Source: Chloroflexota bacterium
GTDB taxonomy: Bacteria > Chloroflexota > Anaerolineae > Anaerolineales > E44-bin32
Reading direction: 5' to 3'
DNA length: 64,000 nucleotides
NCBI GenBank assembly: GCA_022561385.1
Contig: JADFRG010000003.1
Coordinates: 66,049-130,048, forward strand
Positions 22,506 to 47,349 of this stretch are shown here, one piece after another. Every line of letters begins with the position of its first letter. Position 1 is the stretch's first letter. The position numbers and the translations under genes were made by a program. Under the pieces are notes generated by a model. That model ran no database searches. It saw nothing but the letters and a program-made list of their open reading frames with translations, and had not been told where the DNA came from.

Positions 22506-22613
<108 letters not shown>

Positions 22614-22697: not shown

Positions 22698-23912
22698 ATG
22701 GCAACACTCCCGTCGCAGACGGATCGAACACCAAGGCTCTCAACGGAAGCCGTGCACGCAGGCGAGAACAGGCCCTACCCGCACCACGCCCTGACCCTGC
22801 CCATCTTCGACACGTCGACATATACCTTTGAGAACACGGCAGACCTTCGTCAATTCATGGAAGCCCGCATGTGGGGGCTGGCGGAGGGACGGGTGGAGTA
22901 TGGGCGTTATGGCAACCCCACCATCTTCGAGGTCGAGGCCCGTGTGGCGGCGCTGTCGGGCGGCGAGGCGGCGGTTCTCATGTCTTCCGGTATGGCCGCC
23001 GTCACAAGCACGTTGCTCTCACTGCTCTATGCAGGAGATCACCTGGTGATCACGGACGATTCGTACCGGCGCACCCGGCAATTTTGTTTGACTTTCCTCA
23101 AGCGCTGGGGGATCGAGTGTTCGGTGGTCCCGGCCGGAGACCTGGAGCAGCTGGAGGCCGCCATCCGTCCCGAAACCAAAGTCATCGTCTCCGAGTCGCC
23201 AACCAACCCCTACATGCGGGTCCTGGATCTCGAGCGCCTGGTGGCTATCGCGAAGCGTCACAAGGTCAAGACCCTAATCGACAGCACTTTCGCAACCCCC
23301 ATCAATCAGCGGCCGCTCGAATTTGGCGTAGACCTGGTGGTGGATTCGGCTACGAAGTACCTCGGTGGCCACAATGATCTTCTGGCCGGGGCAGTAGTGG
23401 GTTCAGAATCGCTGATGGCCATGATTCGGCAGAACCAATGGGTCCTGGGAGCCGTATGCGATCCGCATACCGCCTACCTGATCCAACGCGGGCTCAAGAC
23501 ATTGGCACTCCGCGTTCATCAACAGAACACGAGCGCCATGAAGGTGGCCGAATTCCTGGAGGCCCAGGCCGGGGTCAGTCGCGTTTGGTATCCTGGACTG
23601 CGTTCTCATCCGGATCATGATATTGCCCGCCAGCAAATGGATGGTTTCGGAGGGGTAGTAAGTTTCGAGCTTGAGGGCGATCTGGAAACTACCAGCCGAT
23701 TCATTGATGCGGTTAAGCTCCCGCTCATCGCCTCCAGCCTGGGAGGGGTGGAGACGCTGATCGAGCAGCCGGCGCTCATGTCGTACTTCGAACTTTCCAG
23801 CGAAGAGCGGATGGAGATCGGCATCAAGGACAATCTCGTCCGGCTGGCAATTGGGATCGAGAGTCCGGAGGACTTGATAGCCGACCTGGCGGAGGCGCTT
23901 AAGGTTGTGTGA
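22698..23912 (+). CDS. Cys/Met-metabolism PLP enzyme (cystathionine gamma-synthase / gamma-lyase family)
   Basis: 404 aa. PLP-lysine motif [14 protein letters not shown]. Sits under a SAM-I riboswitch. Confidence 0.85.
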
Positions 23913-30408: not shown

Positions 30409-31413
30409 CTAGAGCAATCCGGTGGTTTCCTCCAGTCCGAAAACGACGTTCATGTTCTGTATCGCCTGTCCGGCCGCGCCCTTTCGGAGGTTGTCGATCG
30501 CGGCCGTGATCACGAGCATTCCGTCGACTTCGGTCATGCCGATCACACATCGATTGCTGTAGTTGACCTGACGCAGGGTCGCCACCTCGCCCAGAGGGAG
30601 GATCGTGATGAACGGTTCCTCCGCGTACGTCTCAAGGTAGAGATGATGCACCTGCGACTCGACCCAGCCTGAACGCAGCGGGACGTACAGGGTGGAAAGT
30701 AGTCCGCGCGGGATGGGCACGAGGTGCGGGCTGAAGATCAGCCTGAGGTCCGAATCGCCCCAGCGGGCCAGCATCGTCTCCATCTCGGGCAGATGTCGGT
30801 GTGCACGCCCAATGCTGTAGGGACGCAGGTCCTCCGCTACCTCTACAAACTGTGTCGCCAATTTGGGCGTGCGGCCTGCTCCGGACACGCCGGATTTAGC
30901 GTCCACGATCACTCGTCCGCCGACCACAGATTCGAGCAGCAGCGGATATAGAGCGAGCAGCACCGAGGTCGGATAACATCCAGGGTTGGCTACCAGACGG
31001 GCGTCAGGCAGCCGCTCCCGTTCGGTTTCGGTCAGTCCGTAGACCGCTTCGTCGAGCAGTTCCGGGGCAGGATGGCGCTGCCCGTACCATTTCTGGTAAA
31101 GCTCCGGGTCTGCCAGGCGAAAGTCGGCGCTGAGGTCGATCACGCGGGTGCCCTCTTGCAGCGCCTCCGCGGCCACTTCGGCCGACTGCCCATTCGGGAG
31201 ACAGAGAAACACCAGATCCACGTCTTCGATGGGGGCCTGCACCGGATCGATGAGATTGATATCTGGAGCTCCGGGGAAGACCTTCGCCAGGCTCTGATCT
31301 GGACTGGATCGGGAAGTTGCGAATTTGAGCCGGACCTGATCGTGGCGGCCGAGCAACCGGATCAACTCCGCTCCGGTGTAGCCGGTCGCACCCAGAACTC
31401 CAACCTCGATCAT
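30409..31413 (-). CDS. argC: N-acetyl-gamma-glutamyl-phosphate reductase
   Basis: 334 aa. GATGYTG NAD-binding motif and active-site PGCYPTS. Confidence 0.95.
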   Translation of the reverse strand: MIEVGVLGATGYTGAELIRLLGRHDQVRLKFATSRSSPDQSLAKVFPGAPDINLIDPVQAPIEDVDLVFLCLPNGQSAEVAAEALQEGTRVIDLSADFRLADPELYQKWYGQRHPAPELLDEAVYGLTETERERLPDARLVANPGCYPTSVLLALYPLLLESVVGGRVIVDAKSGVSGAGRTPKLATQFVEVAEDLRPYSIGRAHRHLPEMETMLARWGDSDLRLIFSPHLVPIPRGLLSTLYVPLRSGWVESQVHHLYLETYAEEPFITILPLGEVATLRQVNYSNRCVIGMTEVDGMLVITAAIDNLRKGAAGQAIQNMNVVFGLEETTGLL

Positions 31414-31433
31414 GCTGACTCCTATAAATGAAA

Positions 31434-31461
31434 CCGCCAGACCTCGTTGCCGGTCTGGCGG
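31434..31461 (-). terminator. perfect 10-bp stem hairpin plus T-rich tract 20 nt upstream of argC ATG (terminator of the upstream operon or a 5'-UTR attenuator)
   Basis: Minus strand: CCGCCAGACC-ggcaacga-GGTCTGGCGG followed by TTTCATTTAT, then AGGAG and ATG. Confidence 0.4.
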
Positions 31462-31672: not shown

Positions 31673-32359
31673 CTATGCATCGACCAGTCGCCTCGCCTGC
31701 CGGAAGACATTGTGAAACATGGAGCGCGTGAGCCGGCCGGTGAAGGTGTTCTGCTGACTGGGATGGTAGCTCACCAGTAGGTGCAGGCCATCCGGGAGGG
31801 TGCTCAGTGCGCCGTGGGCGAACTTAGGTTTCGGCCGCGGGAGTTCCCCTCCGGCTCCGGCCCAGGCTACCAGGAACCCATCGAAAGCGATCTTGCCCAG
31901 GCAAAGCACAACCCGCAGATGTCGAAGCGCGGCCAGTTCACGAATCAGGAACGTGCGGCAGGTCTCTTTCTCAATTCGACTGGGCTTGTTTGCCGGAGGC
32001 GCACAATGTACGACGGCGGTGATGTAGGCGTCCTTGGGTTTGAGCTCGTGGTCGGTTGTGGCGGAGGGCGATCGATTGGAGAAGTCGTAACGATACATGG
32101 CCTCGAACAGCCATTCCCCGCTGCGATCACCGGTGAACATCCTTCCGGTTCGATTCCCGCCGTGCGCTGCAGGAGCCAGGCCGACAATCATGAGCCTCGC
32201 CTGAGGGTCCCCAAGAGACGGCACCGGCCGGCCCCAGTAGGTTTGGTCGGCAAATCGCCTGGTTTTTCGGGCCGCGATGTCTTCCCGATGGGCCACCAGG
32301 CGTGGGCAGGCGCGGCATCCAATAACTTCTTCCCGGATGGCGGCAAGATCAGATTTCAT
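31673..32359 (-). CDS. uracil-DNA glycosylase, family 5 (UDGb)-like
   Basis: CRACPRL and GLAPAAHGGNRTGRMFTGD motifs. Start is ATG 32359 (MKSDLAAIREE) or TTG 32422. Confidence 0.8.
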   Translation of the reverse strand: MKSDLAAIREEVIGCRACPRLVAHREDIAARKTRRFADQTYWGRPVPSLGDPQARLMIVGLAPAAHGGNRTGRMFTGDRSGEWLFEAMYRYDFSNRSPSATTDHELKPKDAYITAVVHCAPPANKPSRIEKETCRTFLIRELAALRHLRVVLCLGKIAFDGFLVAWAGAGGELPRPKPKFAHGALSTLPDGLHLLVSYHPSQQNTFTGRLTRSMFHNVFRQARRLVDA

Positions 32360-32424
32360 TTTGGGCCGTTCAATTGGAGGCACAGACGGAATATTTCGCG
32401 TACGCGGCCGGTTCGCATGCAACG

Positions 32425-33225
32425 TTAAGGCAGCGTTGCCATCAGCAATCCATAACCAAGCGTGCCTTCTTCGATCGTCCTGGCCGCGCTTGCCGCCACA
32501 ATTCTGGCTTCTTCGAAATCAACCCCTGGTATTTCGAGCTTTTTTACTTTGAATATCAACTCGGCGCCGAGCAGACTGGCGCGCACGTTTCTAACCGTCG
32601 TTTCAAGCACTTCCGGATGCGGCTCGATGTGATCAATTCTAAAGCCGGCTTCTTCGAGCAGGGCCGCATAACGATCCGAGGGAAGCGCCTCTGAGATGCA
32701 CACGATCTGGGCCAGGAGCCCGGATAATTCTGGCGGAAGCGGGCCCGACCGCGTGACGTCACTCAAGCCCACTCGACCTCCGGCTCTGAGCACGCGCGCA
32801 AACTCCCCGGCCGCAGTGTGTTTGTCTGGGAAGGTACAGAATGAACATTCACAAATTAGGGCATCGAAACTGCCGTCCGGAAAGGGCAATTTCTCGGAAT
32901 CTCCGAGTTCGAACCGCACGAGATGAGCCAGGCCGGCCTCTTGGGCGCGCCGTCGCGCCTGGCCCACGAGTTCTTCACTGTAGTCGATACCCACGACCTC
33001 GCATCCGAATTTCTCTGCCAGGTAAACCGCGCTCGCACCTGTGCCGGAGGCAACATCCAGCACCCGCTGTCCGGGGCGAAGATCGAGCAATTTCCCCAAC
33101 CTTTCGGTGAGCTCGAGACCGCCCGGGTGAAACGATTCTCCCAGCAGCAGTCGCGCCCAATCGCTCTCGTAAAGCGCGGCACAGCAGGTCTTGATCTCGG
33201 CGGCCGCGGGGGCGGAAGTTATCAC
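32425..33225 (-). CDS. class I SAM-dependent methyltransferase, ArsM-like with conserved Cys sets
   Basis: SAM motif I VLDVASGTGASAV. Cys sets TCC (N-terminal), ICECSFCTF and VCISEA align by eye with ArsM NCVINL and VGCLAG regions. GGRVGLSDVTRSGPLPPEL...YAALLEEAGF resembles ArsM GGRFAVSDVV...YVAKLAAAGF. Start GTG 33225 overlaps the radical SAM stop (GTGA). Confidence 0.75.
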   Translation of the reverse strand: MITSAPAAAEIKTCCAALYESDWARLLLGESFHPGGLELTERLGKLLDLRPGQRVLDVASGTGASAVYLAEKFGCEVVGIDYSEELVGQARRRAQEAGLAHLVRFELGDSEKLPFPDGSFDALICECSFCTFPDKHTAAGEFARVLRAGGRVGLSDVTRSGPLPPELSGLLAQIVCISEALPSDRYAALLEEAGFRIDHIEPHPEVLETTVRNVRASLLGAELIFKVKKLEIPGVDFEEARIVAASAARTIEEGTLGYGLLMATLP

Positions 33226-34760
33226 TTGCCTGCACCATTCAAATTGAAGGAGAAGGTCAGGGGTTCGGGATCGAATGCAAGCCCTTCCTGCTCGGCCTTC
33301 CGTCGCGATCGCTGGCGCTGCGCCAGCTGCTGGCGGGTCTGCTCCCGGTAGCCGATATTGTTGTAGGCACAGAAGGGGATCTGCTTGCCATCCGGCAGCA
33401 GGATTACCTTGCAGCACTTCATTACATTCTTTTGGTTGAAGGTCCAGGGGTCAAGGAAATCCTGGAGGGCGATCATGAACACGTGATCCGTGATGGCCGC
33501 GAGCTCCGACTCCTCCAGCAGGTCGCAGATGGAGCAGGAGAGTGCGAAGTCGCGCCCCGACTTTTCCGTTCCCGGGACGGCCGAGGAAGACCAAAGCGCC
33601 TCGAGCGTGGTCTGGATCGTCTCGGCGCTAAACTCACCGAGATCCGGCACGATCCGATTTGACACATAGTCAAGGTAGTCCTCGACCTTTAGGAAACGTG
33701 GCAGAGGCAGGACCGTCTCACCCTCGACATAGGCATAAGTCATCGAGTTACAGGTGGGGAAGCAGCAAGGGACCGGGAAGAAGTCTTTCTCCACAAAAAG
33801 CCCATCCGTCTGCGCTTCAATCAACTTGATAATGTCAGGGTTCGTCATTCGAGTCAGCGGGTCATGGTCCTCATGACGGCCTGAGTGAAATGCAGGTTGA
33901 AATGTGATCCCGCGGACCGCTGGATGTTTCAGCCCAAATCTGACGATCTCGCCTAGCTCATGCTCATTGACATCTCGCTCAACCGCCGGCACGAGAATGA
34001 CCGTACAGCCGATCTCCGCCAGCCGATCCAGTGCGCGCAGCTTCTGATCCAGAATATCGGCCTCGCCCCTTAGGATGCGGTAGGTTTCCGACTCGAAGCC
34101 GTCAAACTGAAAATAGATTGCGGGGCGCGGATCGATCCCGGCCAGCTGCTCGAGAAATCCGTCGTCATCGGCGATGCGTTTGCCGTTGGTATTGAGCATA
34201 ACGCGTCGGATATTCCGACGGGTGGCAGCCTCCAGCATCGGGATGATGTCTGGATGGATCGTGGGTTCCCCTCCCGAAAACTGAACCGCCTCCGGTTGTC
34301 CCTCGGTTTCCACGAAGTGATCCAGGATTCCTTCCACTTCCTCTAGCGTGAGATTGAAACCCACGCCGGCGTCCGCAAAGCAGAGCGGGCAATCCATGTT
34401 GCATGCGGTATTTACCTCGATGATGCCCAAGCAAGCATGCTGTTGATGGTCGGGGCAGAGACCGCAGTCGTGCGGGCAGCCGTGAACGATATCGGTCGAA
34501 AACTTAAGCGGAATCGTGCCCGGTTTGTTGTAACGCGCGGAGCCCACGTAGGCCTCGGCGTCTCCATAGATCAGCGCCTCGAAGGGTCCATGCTCCGGAC
34601 AGCGCTTCCGCATGTAGACCTTGTCGTCACGCAGCAGAATGTGAGCATCGATCACCCGCCGGCAGACCGGGCAGATGCTGCGCGTGAGCTCAAAAAATAC
34701 GGAATCCGAATCTTGCTTTACTGTGTTGGGCGAAGGTGAGATCATCAAAGGGGTGTCCAT
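33222..34760 (-). CDS. multi-cluster radical SAM enzyme with N-terminal zinc-ribbon (COG1964 / Tes-MJ0619-like architecture)
   Basis: 512 aa. N-terminal CPVCRR...KRCPEHGPF, extra cluster motif GCPHDCGLCPDHQQHAC, radical SAM motif CNMDCPLC. Confidence 0.8.
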   Translation of the reverse strand: MDTPLMISPSPNTVKQDSDSVFFELTRSICPVCRRVIDAHILLRDDKVYMRKRCPEHGPFEALIYGDAEAYVGSARYNKPGTIPLKFSTDIVHGCPHDCGLCPDHQQHACLGIIEVNTACNMDCPLCFADAGVGFNLTLEEVEGILDHFVETEGQPEAVQFSGGEPTIHPDIIPMLEAATRRNIRRVMLNTNGKRIADDDGFLEQLAGIDPRPAIYFQFDGFESETYRILRGEADILDQKLRALDRLAEIGCTVILVPAVERDVNEHELGEIVRFGLKHPAVRGITFQPAFHSGRHEDHDPLTRMTNPDIIKLIEAQTDGLFVEKDFFPVPCCFPTCNSMTYAYVEGETVLPLPRFLKVEDYLDYVSNRIVPDLGEFSAETIQTTLEALWSSSAVPGTEKSGRDFALSCSICDLLEESELAAITDHVFMIALQDFLDPWTFNQKNVMKCCKVILLPDGKQIPFCAYNNIGYREQTRQQLAQRQRSRRKAEQEGLAFDPEPLTFSFNLNGAGK

Positions 34761-36758: not shown

Positions 36759-36788
36759 TTGACAAGCCGTGCCTCACGCGCGTAGAGT
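36759..36788 (+). promoter_or_regulatory. candidate promoter giving a leaderless kinase mRNA
   Basis: TTGACA (36759-36764), 18-nt spacer, TAGAGT (36783-36788). ATG at 36796, 7 nt after the -10. Confidence 0.4.
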
Positions 36789-36795
36789 GACCCCA

Positions 36796-37854
36796 ATGAA
36801 CATCGCACGTTATGAGGTTTTCGAACAACTCGGCCGAGGCGGAATGGCCACGGTGTATCGCGCTCGCGATCCGCGGTTCAAACGCCAGGTGGCGATCAAG
36901 TTGCTGCCGCGTGAATTCCTGCACGACCCAAATTTCAAGGCCCGCTTCGTGCGAGAAGCTCAGACCGTCGCGCGGCTAGAACATCCCGCCATCGTGCCGG
37001 TTCACGACTTCGGCGAACATGAGGGCCAGCCGTACCTGGTCATGCGGCATATGGGAGGTGGCTCCCTGGCCGATTGGATCGAGCGCGGCCCTTTGCGCGT
37101 TGAGGAGGCGGCCGCCGTCGTTATGCGGGTGGCCGCCGCACTGGACTATGCACACGGTCGGGGCGTGATCCATCGCGACCTGAAGCCAGGAAATATCCTC
37201 TTCGACGAGGCCGGCCATGCCTACCTGGCCGATTTCGGAATCGCCCAGTTGGCGGAGGCCACCCTGGCACTCACCAAGAGCGGGGTCTACATCGGGACAC
37301 CCGCCTACATGAGCCCCGAGCAGGTGCGTGGTGATCTCGAGCTCGATGGACGCAGCGACGTCTATGCGCTTGGCATCATCCTTTTCGAAATGCTCACCGG
37401 GAGGCAACCTTACACGGCCGACACGCCTGCTAAGCTCATGATGAAACATGTGCTGGACCCGGTTCCAAGCCTTCGTGACCTCGACCCGGCGCAACTGCCG
37501 GCCGCCGATCAGATCGTGGCACAGGCCATGGCCAAGGACCGGGAGGAGCGCTTTGCGGGCGCGGCCGAGCTCGGTGAAGCGGTTGGATCCTTAGTCGGAG
37601 ACACTTCCTCCCAGCTCATTGCCGAGCGTCCGATCACCGGTGTGGGAAAACCGCCACGTCGCGCGAGCTTGCGCCACCGCTGGTCGTGGATTCTGGCCGG
37701 CCTGCTACTGCTCGGCACGGTAGGCGGCGCACTTGCGATGGGAGCGGCCGCGCGCGGCGAAACCAACGCCGGATACCGCGCCTGCGCTTGTAATAGCCAC
37801 GGAGACCGAGGTCCCCTCATCGACCCCGACGGTTGTGCCCAGCCATACTCCTGA
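36796..37854 (+). CDS. Hanks-type Ser/Thr protein kinase with TM segment (reading frame breaks just after the TM)
   Basis: GRGGMATVY, VAIKLL, HRDLKPGNILF, DFG and SPE all present. TM segment WILAGLLLLGTVGGALAMGAAA. Confidence 0.85.
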   Translation: MNIARYEVFEQLGRGGMATVYRARDPRFKRQVAIKLLPREFLHDPNFKARFVREAQTVARLEHPAIVPVHDFGEHEGQPYLVMRHMGGGSLADWIERGPLRVEEAAAVVMRVAAALDYAHGRGVIHRDLKPGNILFDEAGHAYLADFGIAQLAEATLALTKSGVYIGTPAYMSPEQVRGDLELDGRSDVYALGIILFEMLTGRQPYTADTPAKLMMKHVLDPVPSLRDLDPAQLPAADQIVAQAMAKDREERFAGAAELGEAVGSLVGDTSSQLIAERPITGVGKPPRRASLRHRWSWILAGLLLLGTVGGALAMGAAARGETNAGYRACACNSHGDRGPLIDPDGCAQPYS

Positions 37855-38281
37855 GCCCACCATGGGTAATCCCGGACCGATCTGGGCCCAGATGATGCAG
37901 GATGCGGCTTGCCGCGCCGGGCCGGGAACCGTGTATGAGATTCTGGGTTATGTCGCCGCCGGCCAGTCTGCCCTAACTTACGGGACGGATCTTGAAGGGG
38001 ACTGGTGGTGGATCCAATCCCCGGACGGCTCGCGCAGGTGCTGGATTTCCAATTTACTGGTTTCGTTTCAGAGCAATCTGCCAGAAGTTCCGATCCTGAC
38101 CCCCGAACCGACGCCGCGCGAACTTCCTGCGACCGCGACCGAGGCCCCGCCTCCACCCCCGGCCCCGACCGCGACCTTCACTCTTGTGCCGCCACCGCCG
38201 GGACCGACCTTCACACCCACGCAGGCCGGTACACTCGAATTCCCTGAATGTGGCTCACCTGCTCCGGAGATCTGCCCGTAA
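37733..38281 (+). CDS. PT-linker plus SH3b-like extracellular domain ORF, probably the frameshifted continuation of the kinase
   Basis: In the +1 frame relative to the kinase: KPTPDTAPALVIATETEVPSSTPTVVPSHTPEPT...CRAGPGTVYEILGYVAAGQSALTYGTDLEGDWWWIQSPDGSRRCWIS. No signal peptide or SD of its own. Confidence 0.5.
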   Translation: MRWERPRAAKPTPDTAPALVIATETEVPSSTPTVVPSHTPEPTMGNPGPIWAQMMQDAACRAGPGTVYEILGYVAAGQSALTYGTDLEGDWWWIQSPDGSRRCWISNLLVSFQSNLPEVPILTPEPTPRELPATATEAPPPPPAPTATFTLVPPPPGPTFTPTQAGTLEFPECGSPAPEICP

Positions 38282-38420: not shown

Positions 38421-38984
38421 ATGAGCAGCAAGCGGTTTCGTCTCGGAATGTTCGTCATCTCCGGCGTACTATTGTGCGCGGTTGGCGGCTACCTTGCCGT
38501 TTCATGGCCGCACTTGGCCGAAGAGGGGAGCGAGGTGACGCCGGCTCGCTATTCGGCCATACAACGACGCTGGGCGGCCAAGGGTCCCTATCACTACCGG
38601 CTCCTGGCGAGCTACCACTATGACATTGTGGGTGGATGTTCTGACGACGTCGAAGTGATGAACGAGAGAGTGATCCGCACCTATCGGACCGACTGCGGGA
38701 GTCCCGGATTCCTCACAGTCTCGAAGATCTATGACATGTTTCAGGACTTCGTCGGACAAGAGAGCACTCGTCCCCTGGCCAGCGATCGGTGCAATTATTA
38801 TTACGTCAACGCGAACTTTGACCGCGCGACCGGGTATCCCCGCTACTTGAAAAGCCAGCTCATCTCGGCACCGACCCGAGGGCAGTACTTCTCGCTCGAG
38901 CGGTCCTCCAGCGTTCAGAGCTGTTTGGCGATCGGGCCGCCGAGGCTCACCGCCACGATCCAATCACTCACGCCACTCGACTAG
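38421..38984 (+). CDS. membrane-anchored hypothetical protein
   Basis: 187 aa with N-terminal TM segment FVISGVLLCAVGGYLAV. 4 Cys in the ectodomain. Confidence 0.6.
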   Translation: MSSKRFRLGMFVISGVLLCAVGGYLAVSWPHLAEEGSEVTPARYSAIQRRWAAKGPYHYRLLASYHYDIVGGCSDDVEVMNERVIRTYRTDCGSPGFLTVSKIYDMFQDFVGQESTRPLASDRCNYYYVNANFDRATGYPRYLKSQLISAPTRGQYFSLERSSSVQSCLAIGPPRLTATIQSLTPLD

Positions 38985-39054
38985 CGCATATATGATGCTC
39001 GCATTCGTCGAGAACAAATTGGCCGCCCCCAGCATGTGAGTCTCGACCCCCTAC

Positions 39055-39459
39055 CTAGGAGCCGCTCGACACCTTCGAAATTGCGTCCTCGACTACGTCT
39101 TCCAGAGCTCCAGCCGATTGGGGCCCGAAGGCGCGCCAGAGCACATCCCCTTGAGGATCTAGGATTACATAGCTGGGATGACCGGGTAGGCCATAATGTT
39201 GGAAGACGCTCCTACCCTGACCCGAGGCCGCGTCAAGAGCGCGTATTTCTACCTGATCGCCGAATGTTGATTCCAGCCCGTTCACGACGGGCGTCATTTG
39301 CTCTCACTGAAATCAACCCTCGGTATAGAAGTAAAGGAAGGTCGGCTTGTCTGGTGCTGGGGTGATCGGTGTGGATGAATTGGCCGATGCACACCCGGTA
39401 AGCAGCAGCGCCACCAGGGTCAGGCTGACCGCGGCAACTTTTTTCTTCGGGATATCCAT
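39055..39459 (-). CDS. thioredoxin-fold lipoprotein with two in-frame TGA at the CxxC positions (candidate UxxU selenoprotein)
   Basis: The two track ORFs (39313..39501 and 39055..39297) are in the same frame. The junction reads TTC TAT ACC GAG GGT TGA TTT CAG TGA GAG CAA ATG ACG CCC, i.e. FYTEG-*-FQ-*-EQMTPVVNGLE, aligning with Trx xxFWAxWCxxCxxxxPxxxxL. Lipobox LLTGC. Cis-Pro region LPGHPSYVILD. Start is 39459 (MDIPKKK) or 39501. Confidence 0.65.
39276..39292 (-). other. SECIS-like hairpin downstream of the two TGA codons
   Basis: GCCCGU-CGUGA-ACGGGC: 6-bp stem with a GU-containing loop. Begins 11 nt after the second TGA (39306..39304) and 20 nt after the first (39315..39313). Confidence 0.35.
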
Positions 39460-39623
39460 CACGATAATTCTAACCGGTTGTTCAGGCCTCCAAACCCGCA
39501 CCTTCGATCGGATCGGTGACCCTAACCCCTGACCGCGGCATAAACTACTAGGTGAAAAACCTTACTCCGCGTAATAGAGAAATATGTTAATAATGAGCTC
39601 TGATTAGAAGAGAGGAGAGTGCC

Positions 39624-40253
39624 ATGCCTTCAGAGAAAAAGACAAAGAAGGTCAGTCGAAAACAACTTCAAGCGGAAAAAAAGCAGCGAGCTGCGCGTCG
39701 CAGAAATTGGCTTTGGGGGCTAGGGGCGGTAATCGTATTGTTCGTAGGATATTCCTTTGCCAGCTCCGGGGCCGGGCCCAAACCTGGTATCACGGAAGGG
39801 CTTTCTGATGAAGAGATAGCTGCCTTGCCCGCTGCCCCAGTAGTAGGCGCTCGTGCGCCCGACTTTACGATTTTAGATGTAGAGGACAACTCCTTTACGT
39901 TAAGCGAGGTCTTGGGAAAACCCACTGCCATCATGTTTTTCCACACTTGGTGACAGCCTTGTAATCAGAGTGCCCCCGCGTTGCGGCGGGCCGAAGTGGA
40001 GTTTGGGGACGACCTAACGATCCTATTTGTTGATGAACAAGAGCCGTTGGATGCGGTGCTTGAGTTTGCTGATAAATATGGGCTTACGAGCACATTCCTG
40101 ATGGATCGGTCCGGTGCCGTCGGTTTTAGTTATCGCCTGACCTCGACACCCACGACCTATTTCCTGGATCCGAGCGGGGTCGTGCAGGACATCCGGATCG
40201 GTGCAGTGAGTTACAGTTGGCTGGAGAAAAATGTGGAAAGAAGCCTGCAGTGA
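39624..40253 (+). CDS. membrane-anchored TlpA/ResA-like thiol:disulfide oxidoreductase with in-frame TGA at the first Cys of CxxC (candidate UxxC selenoprotein)
   Basis: Track ORFs 39624..39953 and 39981..40253 share a frame. The junction is CAC ACT TGG TGA CAG CCT TGT AAT, i.e. FFHTW-*-QPC-NQSAPAL, matching FWxxWCxPCxxExPxL. GARAPDF upstream and YRLTSTPTTYFLDPSGVV downstream. Confidence 0.7.
39972..39991 (+). other. SECIS-like hairpin downstream of TGA 39951-39953
   Basis: GCCCCCGC-GUU-GCGG(C)GGGC: 8 bp with one bulged C and a GU in the loop. Starts 18 nt after the TGA. Confidence 0.35.
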
Positions 40254-40850
40254 TTCAGGATCAGTCTCGACATTCGCGTTAAGCCCAAAGCGGCCAACGG
40301 ACGATAACCCGCAACCTCCTCCCCCCTCACTTTAAGCGCCTATCTCCTCTCTGCGCGTTGATGACTTCGGTCGCCGGACTGGCTGACATAAAGGCCGCCC
40401 CAACTGCGTGAGAAAGGAACACTCCGAAATGCGTCTACAAGAGCGACGAATAACATAATAATTTTCGGTCTGACCCCCCGAGCCAGGTTCAGACAAAGAT
40501 CTGACATGGGCCTGCTTCGCAGCTCGCCAGCTATGATCGCCCGATCTGGGGAAGTGCCTGGGGAGACGAAAGCCTCCTTGTCATTGAATCGTTGAAGTAA
40601 GTCGGTCGATGAGAGGAGCTTTGTCACTTTCAATGCCCTGTATCCATTCCGACAATATAGATGGAGCTTATCGGTATAGGTGACGGCCCGGGCAAAAGGC
40701 AAGGCTTCAGGTTCTTGACCACGGCGGTAAGCCTTCTTCGAAGGCTTCGCCGAACCTTATCTTTCAACTGGAGGAGTCAGCTCCTGTCCGGTAGTTCGGC
40801 TTAGTGCGGGTTTTCCAAACCAGGCGACCCATGGGCCGTGGGCGACGCTA

Positions 40851-41690
40851 TTGAGTGGACAAGTGAATACCTTCTCCTTGCGGCCCGCCGCCATATTGGG
40901 AGGCGTGCTGGTTTTGGCATCCCTGGTTGTGCTCAGCCTGATCTGGGCCACATCTGCGCGTAGGTCCGGATCCAATGGCCAGCTCATTTACTTCAATGCC
41001 ACAAATGATCGCGGTGAGCTCCTCACCTATCGAGGAGGCCCTGATGTCATCGGCCCAGGCATGATGGGCACACGTCTCAGCTGCGCTTCCTGTCACGGCC
41101 AGGAAGCAAGGGGTGGCGTGCACATGATGCACATGCGGGTAATGGACGCGCCCGATATCCGCTGGTCGGTTTTAGCCGGCGAGGTTGGAGAAGAGCACGC
41201 CAGCGAAGGCGACCCCGAAGACGAGCATACGGAAGCGCATGCCGGCTACGATCTAGTGAATTTCCGCATGGCGGTAGTGGAAGGCCAGCATCCGAACGGC
41301 GAGCGGCTGAACGCTGAAATGCCACGCTGGCAGATCGGCGACGGCGATCTGAAAGACTTGGCAGAATTCTTGAGATCCCCACCGTTGCTAGAGAAAGGAG
41401 TGCTTATGATGCCTGGAGGTTTTTTCGGAGGCGGAGGATGGATCATCTTCCCCATCATTGGAGTCGTCGTCATGATGGTATTCATGTTCATGATGATGAG
41501 CCGACGGGGAGGTATGATGAGCCGACGGGGAGGTTTCGGGTCTAGTCGAGACGACTATGGCCGAAGCCCCCGAGGCCACAACACCGAGATGGGTGAGACG
41601 GAAACGCCGCTCTCGATCCTGAAAAGCAGGTATGCCCGAGGCGAAATCAGCAAAGACGAATATGCGGAGATGAAGAGCGAGCTACAGTAG
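40851..41690 (+). CDS. membrane-anchored c-type cytochrome domain read through in-frame into a SHOCT-domain membrane module
   Basis: N-terminal TM, heme motif CASCH, then (no stop) MMPGGFFGGGGWIIFPIIGVVVMMVFMFMMM...SILKSRYARGEISKDEYAEMKSELQ (SHOCT). Confidence 0.7.
   Translation: MSGQVNTFSLRPAAILGGVLVLASLVVLSLIWATSARRSGSNGQLIYFNATNDRGELLTYRGGPDVIGPGMMGTRLSCASCHGQEARGGVHMMHMRVMDAPDIRWSVLAGEVGEEHASEGDPEDEHTEAHAGYDLVNFRMAVVEGQHPNGERLNAEMPRWQIGDGDLKDLAEFLRSPPLLEKGVLMMPGGFFGGGGWIIFPIIGVVVMMVFMFMMMSRRGGMMSRRGGFGSSRDDYGRSPRGHNTEMGETETPLSILKSRYARGEISKDEYAEMKSELQ
41406..41690 (+). CDS. possible independently translated SHOCT-domain small membrane protein (nested in the cytochrome ORF)
   Basis: AAAGGAG (41394-41400), 5-nt spacer, ATGATG at 41406, in-frame. 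The 94-aa product has the usual stand-alone SHOCT protein architecture. Confidence 0.45.
   Translation: MMPGGFFGGGGWIIFPIIGVVVMMVFMFMMMSRRGGMMSRRGGFGSSRDDYGRSPRGHNTEMGETETPLSILKSRYARGEISKDEYAEMKSELQ
41493..41534 (+). repeat. perfect 21-bp tandem duplication inside the SHOCT module
   Basis: atgatgagccgacggggaggt twice, encoding MMSRRGG twice. Confidence 0.9.
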
Positions 41691-42269
41691 GGTAGCTCGC
41701 TTTGGATCATCTTAGAGCGGTAGACTCTATTGCTCTTTGTCTCCTGCTCGCTATTCATTGCTGCCAGGGGCCTCTGATCGCCCGGTCACTTCCCCACCCC
41801 CTCCCGGGGGCCACGAAATCCAAGACTGGAACCTGAAACCTGATTGGTTTTGGGGGCTGCAAAGCGTCGCCTCGCGGCTCAGGATGAAGTCTTCAAGGGT
41901 GACTAATACCGTGCCAATTTTGGGTTCTGGCGCCCCCGCTACGTTCGAACAAGATCCAACGCGTGGTCGCATTACACCGTCCCAAAAAGCGGAAGATATA
42001 ATCCCTCGACCGGGACCTGCGTGCCTGTACTCGATAGAGTGCGCCCGCCAGGGTGTTCTGCCCCACCCAGAATCGGGGCCGAGCCAAGCGCGAGCGGTTG
42101 ATCACATTCATTCAGCAGCAGTTCCCGCAGAGCCTGCCGAGGCTGCGGCTCGAGGGCGAGTGTGTCGTAACCGCGGGCACTAGAATTGGGCTGGCGCGGG
42201 CCTGTTTCGGAAGGCGGCCTGGCCGATGGGCGAAACGAGATCATCGGCAAATGACAGAGGGAGGGAAAC

Positions 42270-42563: not shown

Positions 42564-42596
42564 ATCGAGGGGCCGACATGCCGTGCCGCAACCCTC

Positions 42597-42853
42597 TTAG
42601 TCAGGGGAGAACGCGTAACACCATGCCACACCCTCCAAAACCGTCTCGCCATCGGCGCGTGTCACGGTGATCGCCAGCTCGGTAACCGGCTTGGATTCGT
42701 GTACGCTGAGAACTTTGGCCTCCGCGGTGACCGTATCACCGATAAAAACCGGGGCCGTGAACCGCCAATCCTGGCTGAGGAAGACGGTACCGGGCCCGGG
42801 CAGGTCTTCGGCCACAAGAGCATGAAGCAGGCCGGTCGTCAGGCCGCCTTGCA
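42597..42853 (-). pseudogene. 3' fragment of a MaoC-like dehydratase gene (left copy of the 255-bp direct repeat)
   Basis: 42599-42853 versus 46947-47201: 252/255 identical by my alignment, with no indels. It covers only the last ~80 codons of the gene at 46936..47349. Confidence 0.85.
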
Positions 42854-46390: not shown

Positions 46391-46622
46391 AAGCCCGGTG
46401 TTGACCCGGTCGAGAAATGAAATGCCCGCTGTCCCTTACCGACAACGGGCCACTCCAGACCGCGATCAAGGTAGCACGAGATCCGACCTCGCAGCCTTAC
46501 ACTTGATTAACAGCCCGCCAGATCTGCCCTACAGATGGGGTGGGGGATCCCGACTTCAGGGCGGGCCTCCGACAACCACGGCCTTAATGCGGACGATGAT
46601 TTCCCTAAGATCTAGGAGGGGG

Positions 46623-46742
46623 AGGTTTTTGGTCCAGGCGAGACGACTATGATCGAAGCCCCCGGAGCCTCAACACCGAGAGGGGTGAGACCGAAACGCC
46701 GCTTTCGATCCTGGAAAAGTGGTATACAAAAGGCGAGATCAG
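46623..46742 (+). pseudogene. remnant of a SHOCT-module C-terminus (diverged copy of 41531-41650)
   Basis: GGFWSRRDDYDRSPRSLNTERGETETPLSILEKWYTKGEI versus GGFGSSRDDYGRSPRGHNTEMGETETPLSILKSRYARGEI. No start, and the frame decays after it. Confidence 0.6.
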
Positions 46743-46935
46743 GGCCTGCATGCCCCCGTCGGGGTATCCCGGCAGGCTCGAATTCGTGTGCTGTGAGGCC
46801 TGCAGTATTAGCAGAAAGGCGACTGCGCCGGCGCCTTCCCGGCCGGGGGAAGTGCCGAAATTCACGCGTGCCTTAGGGTCACCGCTCTGAACACCGTCCC
46901 CCGACCCAAGATCAATGAGTCTCGAATGCCGAGCG

Positions 46936-47349
46936 TCATCCCACCGAGTCAGGGGAGAACGTGTAACACCATGCCACACCCTCCAAGACCGTCTCGCCAT
47001 CGGCGCGTGTCACGGTGATCGCCAGCTCGGTAACCGGCTTGGATTCGTGTACGCTGAGAACTTTGGCCTCCGCGGTGACCGTATCACCGATAAAAACCGG
47101 GGCCGTGAACCGCCAATCCTGGCTGAGGAAGACGGTGCCGGGCCCGGGCAGGTCTTCGGCCACAAGAGCATGAAGCAGGCCGGTCGTCAGGCCGCCTTGC
47201 ACCACTAATTTCCCAAACCGAGTGCCGGCCGCAAATTGCGCGTCAAAGTGCAGAGGATTACGGTCCCCTGTCAGCTCAGAATATGAGAGCACGTGCTCGG
47301 TTGTGAAGGTATTGCTTCGCCGAGCGGTCTGACCCACGTAAATATCCAT
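46936..47349 (-). CDS. MaoC-like (R)-specific enoyl-CoA hydratase / hotdog-fold dehydratase
   Basis: 137 aa. SELTGDRNPLHFD...FGKLVVQGG motif. Confidence 0.85.
   Translation of the reverse strand: MDIYVGQTARRSNTFTTEHVLSYSELTGDRNPLHFDAQFAAGTRFGKLVVQGGLTTGLLHALVAEDLPGPGTVFLSQDWRFTAPVFIGDTVTAEAKVLSVHESKPVTELAITVTRADGETVLEGVAWCYTFSPDSVG

What the first reader, a model, noticed from the sequence alone, without database searches (positions are those of the whole stretch)
39624..40253. TlpA/ResA-like membrane-anchored oxidoreductase with TGA at the first Cys of its CxxC motif (candidate W-U-Q-P-C selenoprotein)
Seen directly:
- ORFs 39624..39953 and 39981..40253 share a frame.
- They are separated by a single TGA (39951-39953) in the context AIMFFHTW-TGA-QPC-NQSAPALRRAEVEF.
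- This matches the redoxin active site FWxxW-C-xP-C-xxExPxL, with the TGA on the nucleophilic Cys.
- Flanking hallmarks are intact: GARAPDF substrate loop, TPTTYFLDPSGVV cis-Pro strand, and an N-terminal TM anchor.
- An 8-bp bulged hairpin with a GUU loop (39972-39991) begins 18 nt after the TGA.

The gene is divergently transcribed from the UxxU candidate 120 bp away. That makes two independent TGA-at-Cys events in neighbouring genes of the same fold.
Basis: partly seen in the sequence, partly recalled or inferred. Interest (0 to 1): 0.75.

Follow-up and report, generated by a model that had tools for sequence, protein, structure and literature searches.

The report
Selenocysteine ResA/TlpA-like redoxin gene in Anaerolineae
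The apparent split gene is one intact gene for a membrane-anchored thiol-disulfide oxidoreductase whose catalytic cysteine is replaced by a TGA-encoded selenocysteine, which makes it a new member of an already known kind of bacterial selenoprotein.

Summary
Window 39624-40253 (+) is a single frame with one internal TGA (39951-53) at the first Cys of the CxxC site of a ResA/TlpA-like redoxin.

The selenoprotein reading is well supported:
- The same TGA is present in about a dozen distinct orthologs (42-85 % identity), including six named Chloroflexota/Anaerolineae MAGs.
- More distant homologs carry Cys at that column.
- dN/dS after the TGA (0.08-0.21) matches that before it.
- TGA is an ordinary stop for 13 of 34 window ORFs, including this gene's own.
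- The hairpin at 39972-39991 meets the published bacterial SECIS model and is conserved with a compensatory C-G/A-U swap.
- Four-fold sites are frozen only within the hairpin.

The gene is always adjacent to a thioredoxin-like lipoprotein gene with two conserved TGAs (UxxU).

Two closely related populations carry decayed alleles with extra stops. In one of them the hairpin is also broken.

Not tested: whether the source genome has selA/B/C/D (none in the window) and whether the protein contains selenium.

UxxC "Prx-like/TlpA-like" selenoproteins are already catalogued, so novelty is modest.

The parts
39624..40253 (+). Complete selenoprotein coding sequence: 209 codons plus a TGA stop. It encodes a ResA/TlpA-like membrane-anchored thiol-disulfide oxidoreductase.
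   Evidence: One frame with a single internal TGA. Pfam AhpC-TSA 1-123/124, E 5.6e-20. NCBIfam ResA PRK03147 scores 78.9 bits, below its 170-bit cut-off. PDB ResA 4nmu, E 8.6e-15.
39610..39619 (+). Purine-rich Shine-Dalgarno-like stretch GAGAGGAGAG, 4 nt before ATG 39624.
   Evidence: Read directly from the sequence. No comparable stretch precedes TTG 39981.
39708..39761 (+). Predicted signal-anchor transmembrane helix (residues 29-46, WLWGLGAVIVLFVGYSFA). It follows a K/R-rich cytoplasmic tail.
   Evidence: Sequence read directly. The same architecture is seen in all orthologs. Topology is inferred from the positive-inside rule.
39951..39953 (+). In-frame TGA, the proposed Sec110 codon, at the nucleophilic position of the UxxC active site.
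   Evidence: TGA sits at the same column in L001-L004, L011-13 and L085-L090. Cys occupies it in more distant homologs.
39960..39962 (+). TGT codon for Cys113, the resolving cysteine of U-Q-P-C.
   Evidence: Invariant in all orthologs.
39972..39991 (+). Bacterial SECIS-type hairpin: 8 bp, one bulged C, apical loop GUU at 39980-39982, 26 nt between the UGA and the loop, -13.2 kcal/mol.
   Evidence: Supporting calls: 33, 35, 52, 54, 56, 70, 83. The model constraints come from PMC13188914 Fig. 2.
40149..40151 (+). Codon for Pro176 of the T-P-T motif, the position of the thioredoxin-fold cis-proline.
   Evidence: It aligns with the proline of ResA LPT in 4nmu and is invariant in orthologs. The cis conformation is inferred.
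40251..40253 (+). True stop codon, also TGA, with no SECIS-like hairpin after it.
   Evidence: Orthologs end at the same ...ERSLQ-stop. TGA ends 13 of 34 large ORFs in the window.
39055..39459 (-). Partner gene for a thioredoxin-like lipoprotein with two in-frame TGAs (39313-39315 and 39304-39306; motif U-F-Q-U). It is always adjacent to the redoxin gene.
   Evidence: Translation. Pfam Thioredoxin. Both TGAs are conserved in L085, L086, L087, L089 and L002, and the genes are adjacent in two different arrangements. A SECIS-model hairpin follows the TGAs.
39347..39520 (+). Remnant of sequence homologous to the 5' part of a cupredoxin gene. That gene lies between the two selenoprotein genes in relatives; the copper-binding domain itself is missing in the window.
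   Evidence: tblastn of the L085 cupredoxin ORF matches only its residues 1-58 in the window. The L085 ORF hits Pfam Cupredoxin_1 and Copper-bind.

Best explanation
Window 39624-40253 encodes one 209-residue selenoprotein.

Proposed mechanism (inferred):
- During translation, the mRNA hairpin at 39972-39991, a bacterial SECIS element lying inside the coding sequence, recruits SelB carrying Sec-tRNA(Sec).
- UGA 39951-53 is then read as selenocysteine instead of stop.
- The product has a short positively charged cytoplasmic tail and one transmembrane anchor (residues 29-46).
- It carries an extracytoplasmic thioredoxin-fold domain of the ResA/TlpA/DsbE type, with active site Sec110-Gln-Pro-Cys113 opposite the Thr-Pro176 loop.
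- It most likely acts as a reductant of disulfides, or of oxidised Cys ligands, on the outer face of the membrane. A CcdA/DsbD-type membrane protein would re-reduce it.
- It probably works with the adjacent UxxU thioredoxin-like lipoprotein on copper-protein and/or cytochrome c maturation.

Shown here:
- gene integrity and family assignment;
- conservation of the TGA and the Cys/Sec pairing;
- purifying selection across the TGA;
- a conserved SECIS-type hairpin;
- conserved linkage to the UxxU gene.

Inferred only: actual Sec insertion, membrane topology, electron donor and substrates.
For: TGA conservation:
- TGA is at the identical column in about a dozen distinct otherwise-open orthologs at 42-85 % identity, from metagenomes and six named Chloroflexota/Anaerolineae MAGs.
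- Gene callers had either split these genes or read them with table 4, giving 'W' at the column.

Cys/Sec pairing:
- Cys occupies the column in more distant homologs (WCxPC).
- Cys is also found within the same HTW-[C/U]-xPC-NxSAP signature in P0029, at 40 % identity.

Selection across the TGA:
- dN/dS downstream of the TGA is 0.08-0.21, the same as upstream.

TGA as a normal stop:
- TGA is a normal stop for 13 of 34 ORFs, including this gene's own.

The hairpin:
- It fits all four bSECIS constraints (loop 3 nt starting G-U, 8-bp stem, spacing 26 nt, -13.2 kcal/mol).
- 97.5 % of cells are paired across 10 orthologs, with the closing pair C-G in 5 and A-U in 5. Only 1 of 500 shuffles reaches this.
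- RNAalifold finds the same helix.
- The 42 % ortholog L011 has a different-sequence 8-bp hairpin with loop GGC, shifted 3 nt.
- Four-fold degenerate sites are invariant at 3 of 4 hairpin codons and at 0 of 20 elsewhere (Fisher p = 0.002).
- The hairpin is broken (-5.9 kcal/mol) only in the lineage that also has extra stop codons.

Context:
- The UxxU partner gene is adjacent in every sufficiently long locus, in two different arrangements.
- A cupredoxin gene lies directly upstream in L085-L087.
- A cytochrome c/SHOCT gene lies downstream in the window.
- A DsbD_TM (CcdA-like) gene sits next to the L011 ortholog and 6.4 kb away in L088.
- The class Anaerolineae includes Sec users.
Against: - No selA, selB, selD or tRNA-Sec is present in the 64-kb window or in 683 kb of fetched loci. 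The source genome as a whole could not be searched.
- Two closely related populations carry alleles with extra nonsense codons (L005; L006-L010). The gene is therefore dispensable in some strains, and the window's lineage could in principle have lost Sec decoding recently.
- The window has lost the adjacent cupredoxin gene present in relatives.
- No CcdA-like gene is in the window.
- The 60-nt region after the TGA is not more stable than shuffles.
- There are no expression or protein data.
Confidence: 0.86

Rival explanations
1. This is a relic selenoprotein gene. The family is a genuine selenoprotein family, but the window's organism has recently lost Sec decoding or the pathway the protein serves. 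The intact-looking copy then terminates at UGA 39951 and is on its way to decay.
For: - Close relatives show exactly such decay. L005 has TAG at codon 29 and TAA at codon 99.
- L006-L010 have TGA at codon 16, TAA at codon 179, a broken hairpin, a decapitated UxxU gene and flanking deletions.
- The cupredoxin gene is already lost in the window.
- Sec machinery has not been seen.
Against: - The window allele has no defect in the ORF, the hairpin or the partner gene.
- The identical allele occurs in 61 blocks of the assembly collection. It is 100 % identical in six contigs whose flanks differ by 0.1-0.6 %.
- In L005 the UxxU gene is still intact with both TGAs, which argues that Sec decoding persists in that near relative.
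Confidence: 0.08
2. This is an ordinary pseudogene: a Cys codon (TGT/TGC) mutated to TGA by chance.
For: A single-base change from TGT/TGC gives TGA. Gene callers split the gene.
Against: - The TGA is present in about a dozen orthologs down to 42 % identity, with saturated synonymous divergence (dS > 1.4).
- dN/dS downstream is about 0.1-0.2.
- A conserved, covarying hairpin follows the TGA.
Confidence: 0.01
3. Two separate polypeptides are made: a 109-aa N-terminal fragment, and a 90-aa fragment started independently at TTG 39981.
For: Both ORFs exist and were called separately in public assemblies.
Against: - TTG 39981 is TTT or GTT in L002, L087, L088, L089 and L090.
- No Shine-Dalgarno sequence precedes it.
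- The QPCNQSAPA segment between the TGA and the TTG is conserved, including the resolving Cys.
- A split inside the active-site helix would give no functional thioredoxin fold (Pfam match spans it).
Confidence: 0.01
4. The UGA is read through without selenium. Either TGA is generally reassigned (genetic code 4 or 25), or near-cognate Trp/Cys is inserted with the hairpin acting as a read-through stimulator.
For: Prodigal-type callers chose table 4 for three short ortholog contigs, giving 'W'.
Against: - TGA terminates 13 of 34 large ORFs here, and this gene itself at the conserved ...SLQ end.
- GC content is 55-64 %, unlike code-4/25 organisms.
- The column is Cys in homologs, the position where Sec, not Trp, is functional.
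- The hairpin matches the SECIS model.
Confidence: 0.03

Closest known systems
'Prx-like thiol:disulfide oxidoreductase' selenoprotein family (Kryukov & Gladyshev 2004). It is listed with PF00578, motif UxxC/UxxU, 1-2 Sec in PMC13188914, and as 'Prx-like protein, UXXC' in PMC1088965.
   Same: - The best Pfam hit is PF00578 AhpC-TSA.
- It has a thioredoxin-type UxxC motif rather than the TxxU motif of true Prx.
- Sec is on the N-terminal nucleophilic position.
- A bSECIS follows directly after the UGA.
- It is a predicted redox protein of unknown substrate.
- UxxU forms also exist in that family, as in the neighbour gene here.
   Different: - Orthology to the Geobacter representative (WP_010940744.1) was not tested.
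- The word-based homolog search found only Chloroflexota-type relatives.
- This clade has its own signature, MFFH[ST]W-U-xxC-N-x-[SN]-A-P, and an N-terminal membrane anchor.
- Its best named relatives are ResA/DsbE/TlpA rather than peroxiredoxins.
ResA / TlpA / CcmG(DsbE) extracytoplasmic thiol-disulfide oxidoreductases (Cys forms; Bacillus ResA structures 4nmu, 1st9).
   Same: - The fold and domain boundaries match (ResA model 37-169/176).
- It has the W-C/U-x-P-C active site.
- The proline of the cis-Pro loop is conserved.
- It has an N-terminal membrane anchor.
- A CcdA-like neighbour is present in some loci, with cytochrome and copper-protein genes nearby.
   Different: - Sec replaces the nucleophilic Cys.
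- The conserved Glu after the CxxC (C-x-x-C-x-x-E-x-P) is Ser.
- Scores are below the NCBIfam cut-offs for ResA (78.9 vs 170), DsbE and TlpA, so it is not an equivalog of any of them.
[quoted passage not shown]
   Same: It is a TlpA/ResA-fold selenoprotein predicted from metagenomes.
   Different: - The motif differs (U-G-C, against U-x-x-C here).
- NF041054 did not match the window protein at E <= 1e-4. It matched only the Cys relative P0029, and only partially.
Bacterial SECIS consensus model (Zhang & Gladyshev 2005, as summarised in PMC13188914 Fig. 2).
   Same: The loop is 3 nt beginning G-U, the stem is 8 bp, the spacing is 26 nt, and the MFE is -13.2 kcal/mol. All of these lie within the model.
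   Different: - There is no sequence similarity to E. coli fdhF/fdnG SECIS, which is usual for bSECIS elements.
- No Rfam family matched.
- SelB binding was not tested.

Membership tests
Bacterial selenoprotein gene (computational criteria used in the field) | An in-frame UGA conserved at the same column in orthologs, with an open frame on both sides. | tested here: met
   TGA is present in L001-L004, L011-13 and L085-L090.
Bacterial selenoprotein gene (computational criteria used in the field) | Cys-containing homologs aligned with the UGA (a Sec/Cys pair). | tested here: met
   L014-L040 have WCxPC. P0004, P0029, P0041 and others have Cys.
Bacterial selenoprotein gene (computational criteria used in the field) | Purifying selection on the sequence downstream of the UGA, in the same frame. 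| tested here: met
   dN/dS is 0.08-0.21 downstream and 0.04-0.27 upstream in comparisons among the intact orthologs.
Bacterial selenoprotein gene (computational criteria used in the field) | A bSECIS hairpin with loop 3-9 nt, G in the first two loop positions, stem 4-16 bp, 16-37 nt from the UGA to the loop, and MFE <= -7.5 kcal/mol. | tested here: met
   Loop GUU, 8 bp, 26 nt, -13.2 kcal/mol. It is conserved and covarying.
Bacterial selenoprotein gene (computational criteria used in the field) | selA, selB, selD and tRNA-Sec in the same genome. | not testable with these tools
The only support is at taxon level: Anaerolinea thermophila is SelD+/SelA+/SelB+.
Bacterial selenoprotein gene (computational criteria used in the field) | Selenium demonstrated in the protein (75Se labelling or mass spectrometry). 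| not testable with these tools
   This needs an experiment.
ResA/TlpA/DsbE-type extracytoplasmic thiol-disulfide oxidoreductase | A thioredoxin-fold domain with the redox motif W-C-x-x-C at the start of helix 1, and the cis-Pro loop. | tested here: met
   Alignment to ResA 4nmu puts TW-U-QPC on TWC-KPC and P176 on the LPT proline. Pfam AhpC-TSA and Redoxin match full-length.
ResA/TlpA/DsbE-type extracytoplasmic thiol-disulfide oxidoreductase | An N-terminal membrane anchor or signal placing the domain outside the cytoplasm. | tested here: met
   A K/R-rich tail plus an 18-residue hydrophobic stretch. Orientation is inferred from the positive-inside rule.
ResA/TlpA/DsbE-type extracytoplasmic thiol-disulfide oxidoreductase | The conserved acidic residue after the motif (C-x-x-C-x-x-E-x-P). 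| tested here: not met
   The sequence is U-Q-P-C-N-Q-S-A-P. Ser or Asn occupies that position in all Sec-clade members.
ResA/TlpA/DsbE-type extracytoplasmic thiol-disulfide oxidoreductase | A score above the curated family cut-off (NCBIfam ResA, DsbE, TlpA). | tested here: not met
   ResA 78.9 against 170, DsbE 42.3 against 123, TlpA 29.9 against 230. It is a relative of these families, not an equivalog.
ResA/TlpA/DsbE-type extracytoplasmic thiol-disulfide oxidoreductase | A CcdA/DsbD-type electron donor. | tested here: inconclusive
   A DsbD_TM gene is adjacent in L011 and 6.4 kb away in L088. None is in the window.
'Prx-like thiol:disulfide oxidoreductase' selenoprotein family | A PF00578-type domain with a thioredoxin-like UxxC (or UxxU) motif. 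| tested here: met
   PF00578 is the best Pfam hit and the motif is U-Q-P-C. The family description is in PMC13188914 and PMC1088965.
'Prx-like thiol:disulfide oxidoreductase' selenoprotein family | Sequence orthology with the family representative (WP_010940744.1). | not tested
   The representative sequence is not retrievable with these tools.

The most novel reading that the evidence does not exclude
The redoxin is one half of a dedicated, Anaerolineae-specific two-selenoprotein relay with three Sec codons. The two halves are a membrane-anchored UxxC reductase and a UxxU thioredoxin-like lipoprotein. The relay would service extracytoplasmic copper and haem proteins (cupredoxin, cytochrome c). 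No curated family model describes this module, and natural populations show it being lost stepwise: cupredoxin first, then the redoxin, then both genes and the SECIS.
Probability: 0.3. Interest if true: 0.5.

Novelty: new member of a known kind. Interest (0 to 1): 0.36.

Why it matters
- It corrects a systematic mis-annotation. In all the public assemblies examined the gene is either split into two ORFs or translated with the wrong genetic code.
- It adds a Chloroflexota clade to the catalogue of thioredoxin-fold UxxC selenoproteins, for which no curated NCBIfam model currently fires.
- The conserved pairing with a UxxU partner gives a concrete, testable extracytoplasmic selenoprotein module.
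- Intact and decayed alleles coexist in near-identical genomes. This is a small natural experiment on selenoprotein loss and on the coupling between ORF integrity and SECIS integrity.

Tried and rejected
- Rfam at gathering thresholds found only a SAM riboswitch in the window. No SECIS or tRNA-Sec family matched.
- ARAGORN found no tRNA in the window and no tRNA-Sec in 683 kb of loci.
- NCBIfam scans of 30 large window ORFs found no SelA, SelB or SelD.
- The first metagenome scan with the 7-sequence alignment failed for lack of a conserved stretch. It was repeated with 4 orthologs.
- Folding 60 nt after the TGA against shuffles was uninformative (z = 0.40).
- The promoter/terminator scan of 38900-40900 gave nothing above the shuffle expectation.
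- A window-wide scan for other TGAs with open frames on both sides plus a SECIS-like hairpin returned only this gene as a plausible coding candidate.
- Linking Sec machinery to the source MAG through the protein search tools was considered and dropped.
- Structure prediction was judged redundant given the E = 8.6e-15 alignment to solved ResA structures.
- General TGA reassignment, a chance pseudogene and an independent downstream start were considered and rejected (see rivals).
Full report
**1. Observation**

- ORFs 39624..39953 and 39981..40253 lie in one frame and are separated by a single TGA at 39951-39953. The context is AIMFFHTW-TGA-QPC-NQSAPALRRAEVEF.
- A purine-rich ribosome-binding stretch (39610-39619) precedes ATG 39624. 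Nothing comparable precedes TTG 39981.
- With Cys written for the stop, the 209-aa product matches Pfam AhpC-TSA over 1-123 of 124 model positions, straight across the TGA (E 5.6e-20), and also Redoxin.
- In NCBIfam it is nearest to ResA, StoA, DsbE and TlpA, all below their curated cut-offs.
- Among solved structures it is nearest to Bacillus ResA (4nmu, E 8.6e-15). TW-U-QPC aligns on TWC-KPC, and Pro176 aligns on the proline of the ResA LPT loop.
- The hairpin is exactly at 39972-39991: GCCCCCGC-GUU-GCGG(C)GGGC.
The Glu of C-x-x-C-x-x-E-x-P is Ser here.

**2. Is the TGA conserved?**

A search of predicted proteins returned three full-length relatives (64, 60 and 45 % identity) that show 'W' at the critical column, and one relative truncated after HSW.
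- Their contigs all carry TGA at that codon. The 'W' is a gene-caller artefact of translation table 4.
- A metagenome scan added a 42 % ortholog with the same TGA (L011-13). About 70 more distant relatives all have Cys there (WCxPC).
- A scan of one genome per species found six MAGs with an ortholog at 48-85 % identity. They are named Chloroflexota, Anaerolineae, Anaerolineales or Anaerolineaceae. Each has TGA at the column and an otherwise open frame.
- An exhaustive HMMER search of 1.84 billion representatives found 64,868 relatives of the fold. Only a handful belong to this clade, among them P0007 (again 'W').
- The same search found a Cys-form relative, P0029, with the same local signature HTW-C-VPC-NNSAP at 40 % identity.
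- So the Sec/Cys pair criterion is met, and the Sec clade is small and confined to Chloroflexota as far as sampled.

**3. Is the downstream part translated in frame?**

- Pairwise Nei-Gojobori estimates give dN/dS of 0.08-0.21 for the 99 codons after the TGA. Among the intact orthologs the 40 codons before it give 0.04-0.27. Synonymous divergence is often saturated.
- The would-be internal start TTG 39981 is TTT or GTT in five orthologs.
- The nine residues between the TGA and that codon, including the resolving Cys113, are conserved.
- TGA is an ordinary stop in this genome. It ends 13 of 34 large ORFs, including this gene at the conserved ...ERSLQ end.
- Chance pseudogene, split gene and genome-wide TGA reassignment are therefore rejected.

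**4. The hairpin**

The published bacterial SECIS model requires four things (PMC13188914 Fig. 2):
- a 3-9 nt apical loop;
- a G in the first two loop positions;
- a 4-16 bp stem, with 16-37 nt between the UGA and the loop;
- MFE <= -7.5 kcal/mol.

The window element has loop GUU, 8 bp, 26 nt spacing and -13.2 kcal/mol.
- Background: 6.5 % of all 1898 TGA trinucleotides in the window are followed by a qualifying hairpin, and 0.84 % by one as stable.
- Across 10 intact orthologs, 97.5 % of cells pair.
- The closing pair is C-G in five orthologs and A-U in five. That swap costs two amino-acid changes (Ala-Leu to Glu-Phe).
- The bulged base varies (C or A) and slides by one position in L003 and L089.
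- Only 1 of 500 column shuffles reaches the observed values. RNAalifold finds the same helix unprompted.
- The 42 % ortholog L011 has an unrelated-sequence 8-bp hairpin (AGCGCACC-GGC-GGUGCGCU, -13.0 kcal/mol), shifted 3 nt.
- Independent of pairing, four-fold degenerate third positions in conserved codons are invariant at 3 of 4 sites inside the hairpin and at 0 of 20 elsewhere in the gene. Mean entropy is 0.135 against 1.44 bit, and Fisher p = 0.002.
- This shows selection on the RNA itself.

**5. Context**

- On the opposite strand, 39055-39459 encodes a thioredoxin-like lipoprotein with two in-frame TGAs (U-F-Q-U).
- Both TGAs are conserved in five orthologs with varying middle residues (FQ, IP, PP, SP).
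- The gene is adjacent to the redoxin in every locus long enough to tell, in two arrangements. It is divergent upstream in the window, L005, L085 and L086. It is downstream on the same strand in L087, L089 and L002.
- Conserved linkage through rearrangement argues for a functional pair.
- L085, L086 and L087 have a type-1-copper cupredoxin gene immediately upstream of the redoxin. The window and L005 keep only about 58 codons of homologous 5' sequence (39347-39520).
- The window has a cytochrome c/SHOCT gene downstream (40851-41690).
- L088 has cytochrome b and c genes nearby. L089 has a DsbA-like gene upstream.
- L011 has a DsbD_TM (CcdA-like) gene next door, and L088 has one 6.4 kb away.
- This fits the ResA/TlpA paradigm of an extracytoplasmic reductant fed by CcdA and serving haem- or copper-protein maturation. 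Substrate and donor remain inference.

**6. Decay in sister populations**

- The exact window allele is common. Its 109-aa N-terminal ORF occurs in 61 blocks of the assembly collection.
- In six contigs read (including NCBI MAG GCA_022626265.1), the 630-nt gene is identical while 17-20 kb of flank is 99.4-99.9 % identical.
- Contig L005 is 94 % identical over 4.4 kb. It has TGG->TAG at codon 29 and AAA->TAA at codon 99 of the redoxin. Its UxxU gene and other neighbours are intact.
- Five assemblies (L006-L010) have flanks 95-98 % identical to the window, but this region is only about 82 % identical. They carry:
  - CAA->TGA at codon 16 and TAT->TAA at codon 179;
  - two uncompensated C->A changes in the hairpin, which drops to -5.9 kcal/mol, below the SECIS threshold;
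  - a UxxU gene lacking its start and carrying an extra stop;
  - deletions on both sides.
- That the hairpin decays only where the ORF decays is an internal control for its function.
- It also shows that the module is dispensable in some strains. This keeps alive a minor rival: that the window copy is a not-yet-decayed relic.

**7. What could not be shown**

- No selA, selB, selD or tRNA-Sec is in the window or the fetched loci. The rest of the genome is out of reach of these tools.
- Support is indirect. Three conserved Sec-type TGAs sit in two adjacent genes across several MAGs. Published tables also list Anaerolinea thermophila and Caldilinea aerophila as SelD+/SelA+/SelB+, with 4 and 3 known selenoproteins (PMC5029168 Tables S1 and S2).

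**8. Comparison with what is known, and novelty**

- Thioredoxin-fold UxxC selenoproteins are well catalogued. They include 'Prx-like thiol:disulfide oxidoreductase' (PF00578; UxxC/UxxU; 1-2 Sec), 'thiol:disulfide interchange protein' (UxxC) and a 'UGC-containing TlpA family' (PMC13188914, PMC1088965, PMC1794560).
- The window gene meets the descriptive criteria of the first of these. Orthology with that family's representative was not tested.
- No selenoprotein-specific NCBIfam model matches it.
- It works like ResA/TlpA but fails their curated cut-offs and lacks their conserved Glu, so it is a relative and not an equivalog.
This is a new (Chloroflexota) member of a known kind of selenoprotein. 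Interest is moderate-low for the gene itself, and somewhat higher for the conserved UxxC/UxxU pair and its observable loss.

Noticed in passing
window 39055-39459 (-); TGAs at 39313-39315 and 39304-39306: The neighbouring thioredoxin-like lipoprotein gene has a U-x-x-U motif. Both TGAs are conserved in five orthologs (xx = FQ, IP, PP, SP). One hairpin (GCCCGU-CGUGA-ACGGGC) lies at SECIS-model distance from both TGAs. No NCBIfam selenoprotein model matches it.
   Followed up: partly
L005 3062-3691; L006-L010 (e.g. L006 6001-6621): Closely related populations carry decayed alleles of the redoxin with extra nonsense codons. In L006-L010 there is also a broken SECIS hairpin, a truncated UxxU gene, and deletions equivalent to window 39372-39510 and 40466-41883.
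   Followed up: yes
window 39624-40253 vs L005: Synonymous divergence between the window and L005 is 0.44 in the 40 codons before the Sec codon but 0.014 in the 99 codons after it. This suggests a recombination breakpoint inside the gene.
   Followed up: no
window 39347-39520 (+); L085 9483-9911: Relatives (L085, L086, L087) have a type-1-copper cupredoxin gene between or next to the two selenoprotein genes. The window keeps only a 5' remnant. In L085, the signal-peptide-like starts of the cupredoxin ORF and of the UxxU gene are encoded antisense to each other on the same DNA.
   Followed up: partly
window 36769-38281 (+): The Ser/Thr kinase ORF ends at 37854, and its Pro/Thr-rich continuation is in another frame (ORF 37733-38281). 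In L005 the two are one continuous frame, so the window and the L091-L096 contigs appear to carry a frameshift or a different C-terminal arrangement.
   Followed up: no
window 32425-34760 (-): There is a radical SAM protein closest to the 'radical SAM (seleno)protein TrsS' and to tetraether lipid synthase Tes (both below cut-off). Next to it is a DVU_1556-family methyltransferase. No in-frame TGA was seen in them.
   Followed up: no
window 22506-22613 (+): A SAM riboswitch (Rfam RF00162, 87 bits) lies directly upstream of a cystathionine gamma-synthase / methionine gamma-lyase family gene at 22698-23912.
   Followed up: no
window 42574-42853 and 46923-47201: A segment of about 280 bp is present twice in the window at about 96-98 % identity. 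It overlaps a MaoC-dehydratase-like gene and a fragment of one. A SHOCT-like coding stretch of the cytochrome c/SHOCT gene (40851-41690) also recurs at 46621-46740.
   Followed up: no
window about 31412-31439 (- strand), between the UDG gene (31673-32422) and argC (30409-31413): A very stable hairpin, CCGCCAGACC-GGCAACGA-GGUCUGGCGG (-21.3 kcal/mol), sits at the argC start, overlapping its first two bases. It may be a terminator or a regulatory element of the arg cluster.
   Followed up: no
P0107 (representative protein library): One clade member reads HSW-R-PVC, with Arg at the Sec column (possibly TGA->CGA), and is truncated. It may be another inactivated allele.
   Followed up: no
L011 1756-4750: The 42 % Sec ortholog sits between a ferric-reductase-like membrane protein and a DsbD_TM (CcdA-like) gene. 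A MerR regulator and a Tn3-type transposase are nearby, so in that lineage it may be part of a mobile or metal-responsive cassette.
   Followed up: partly
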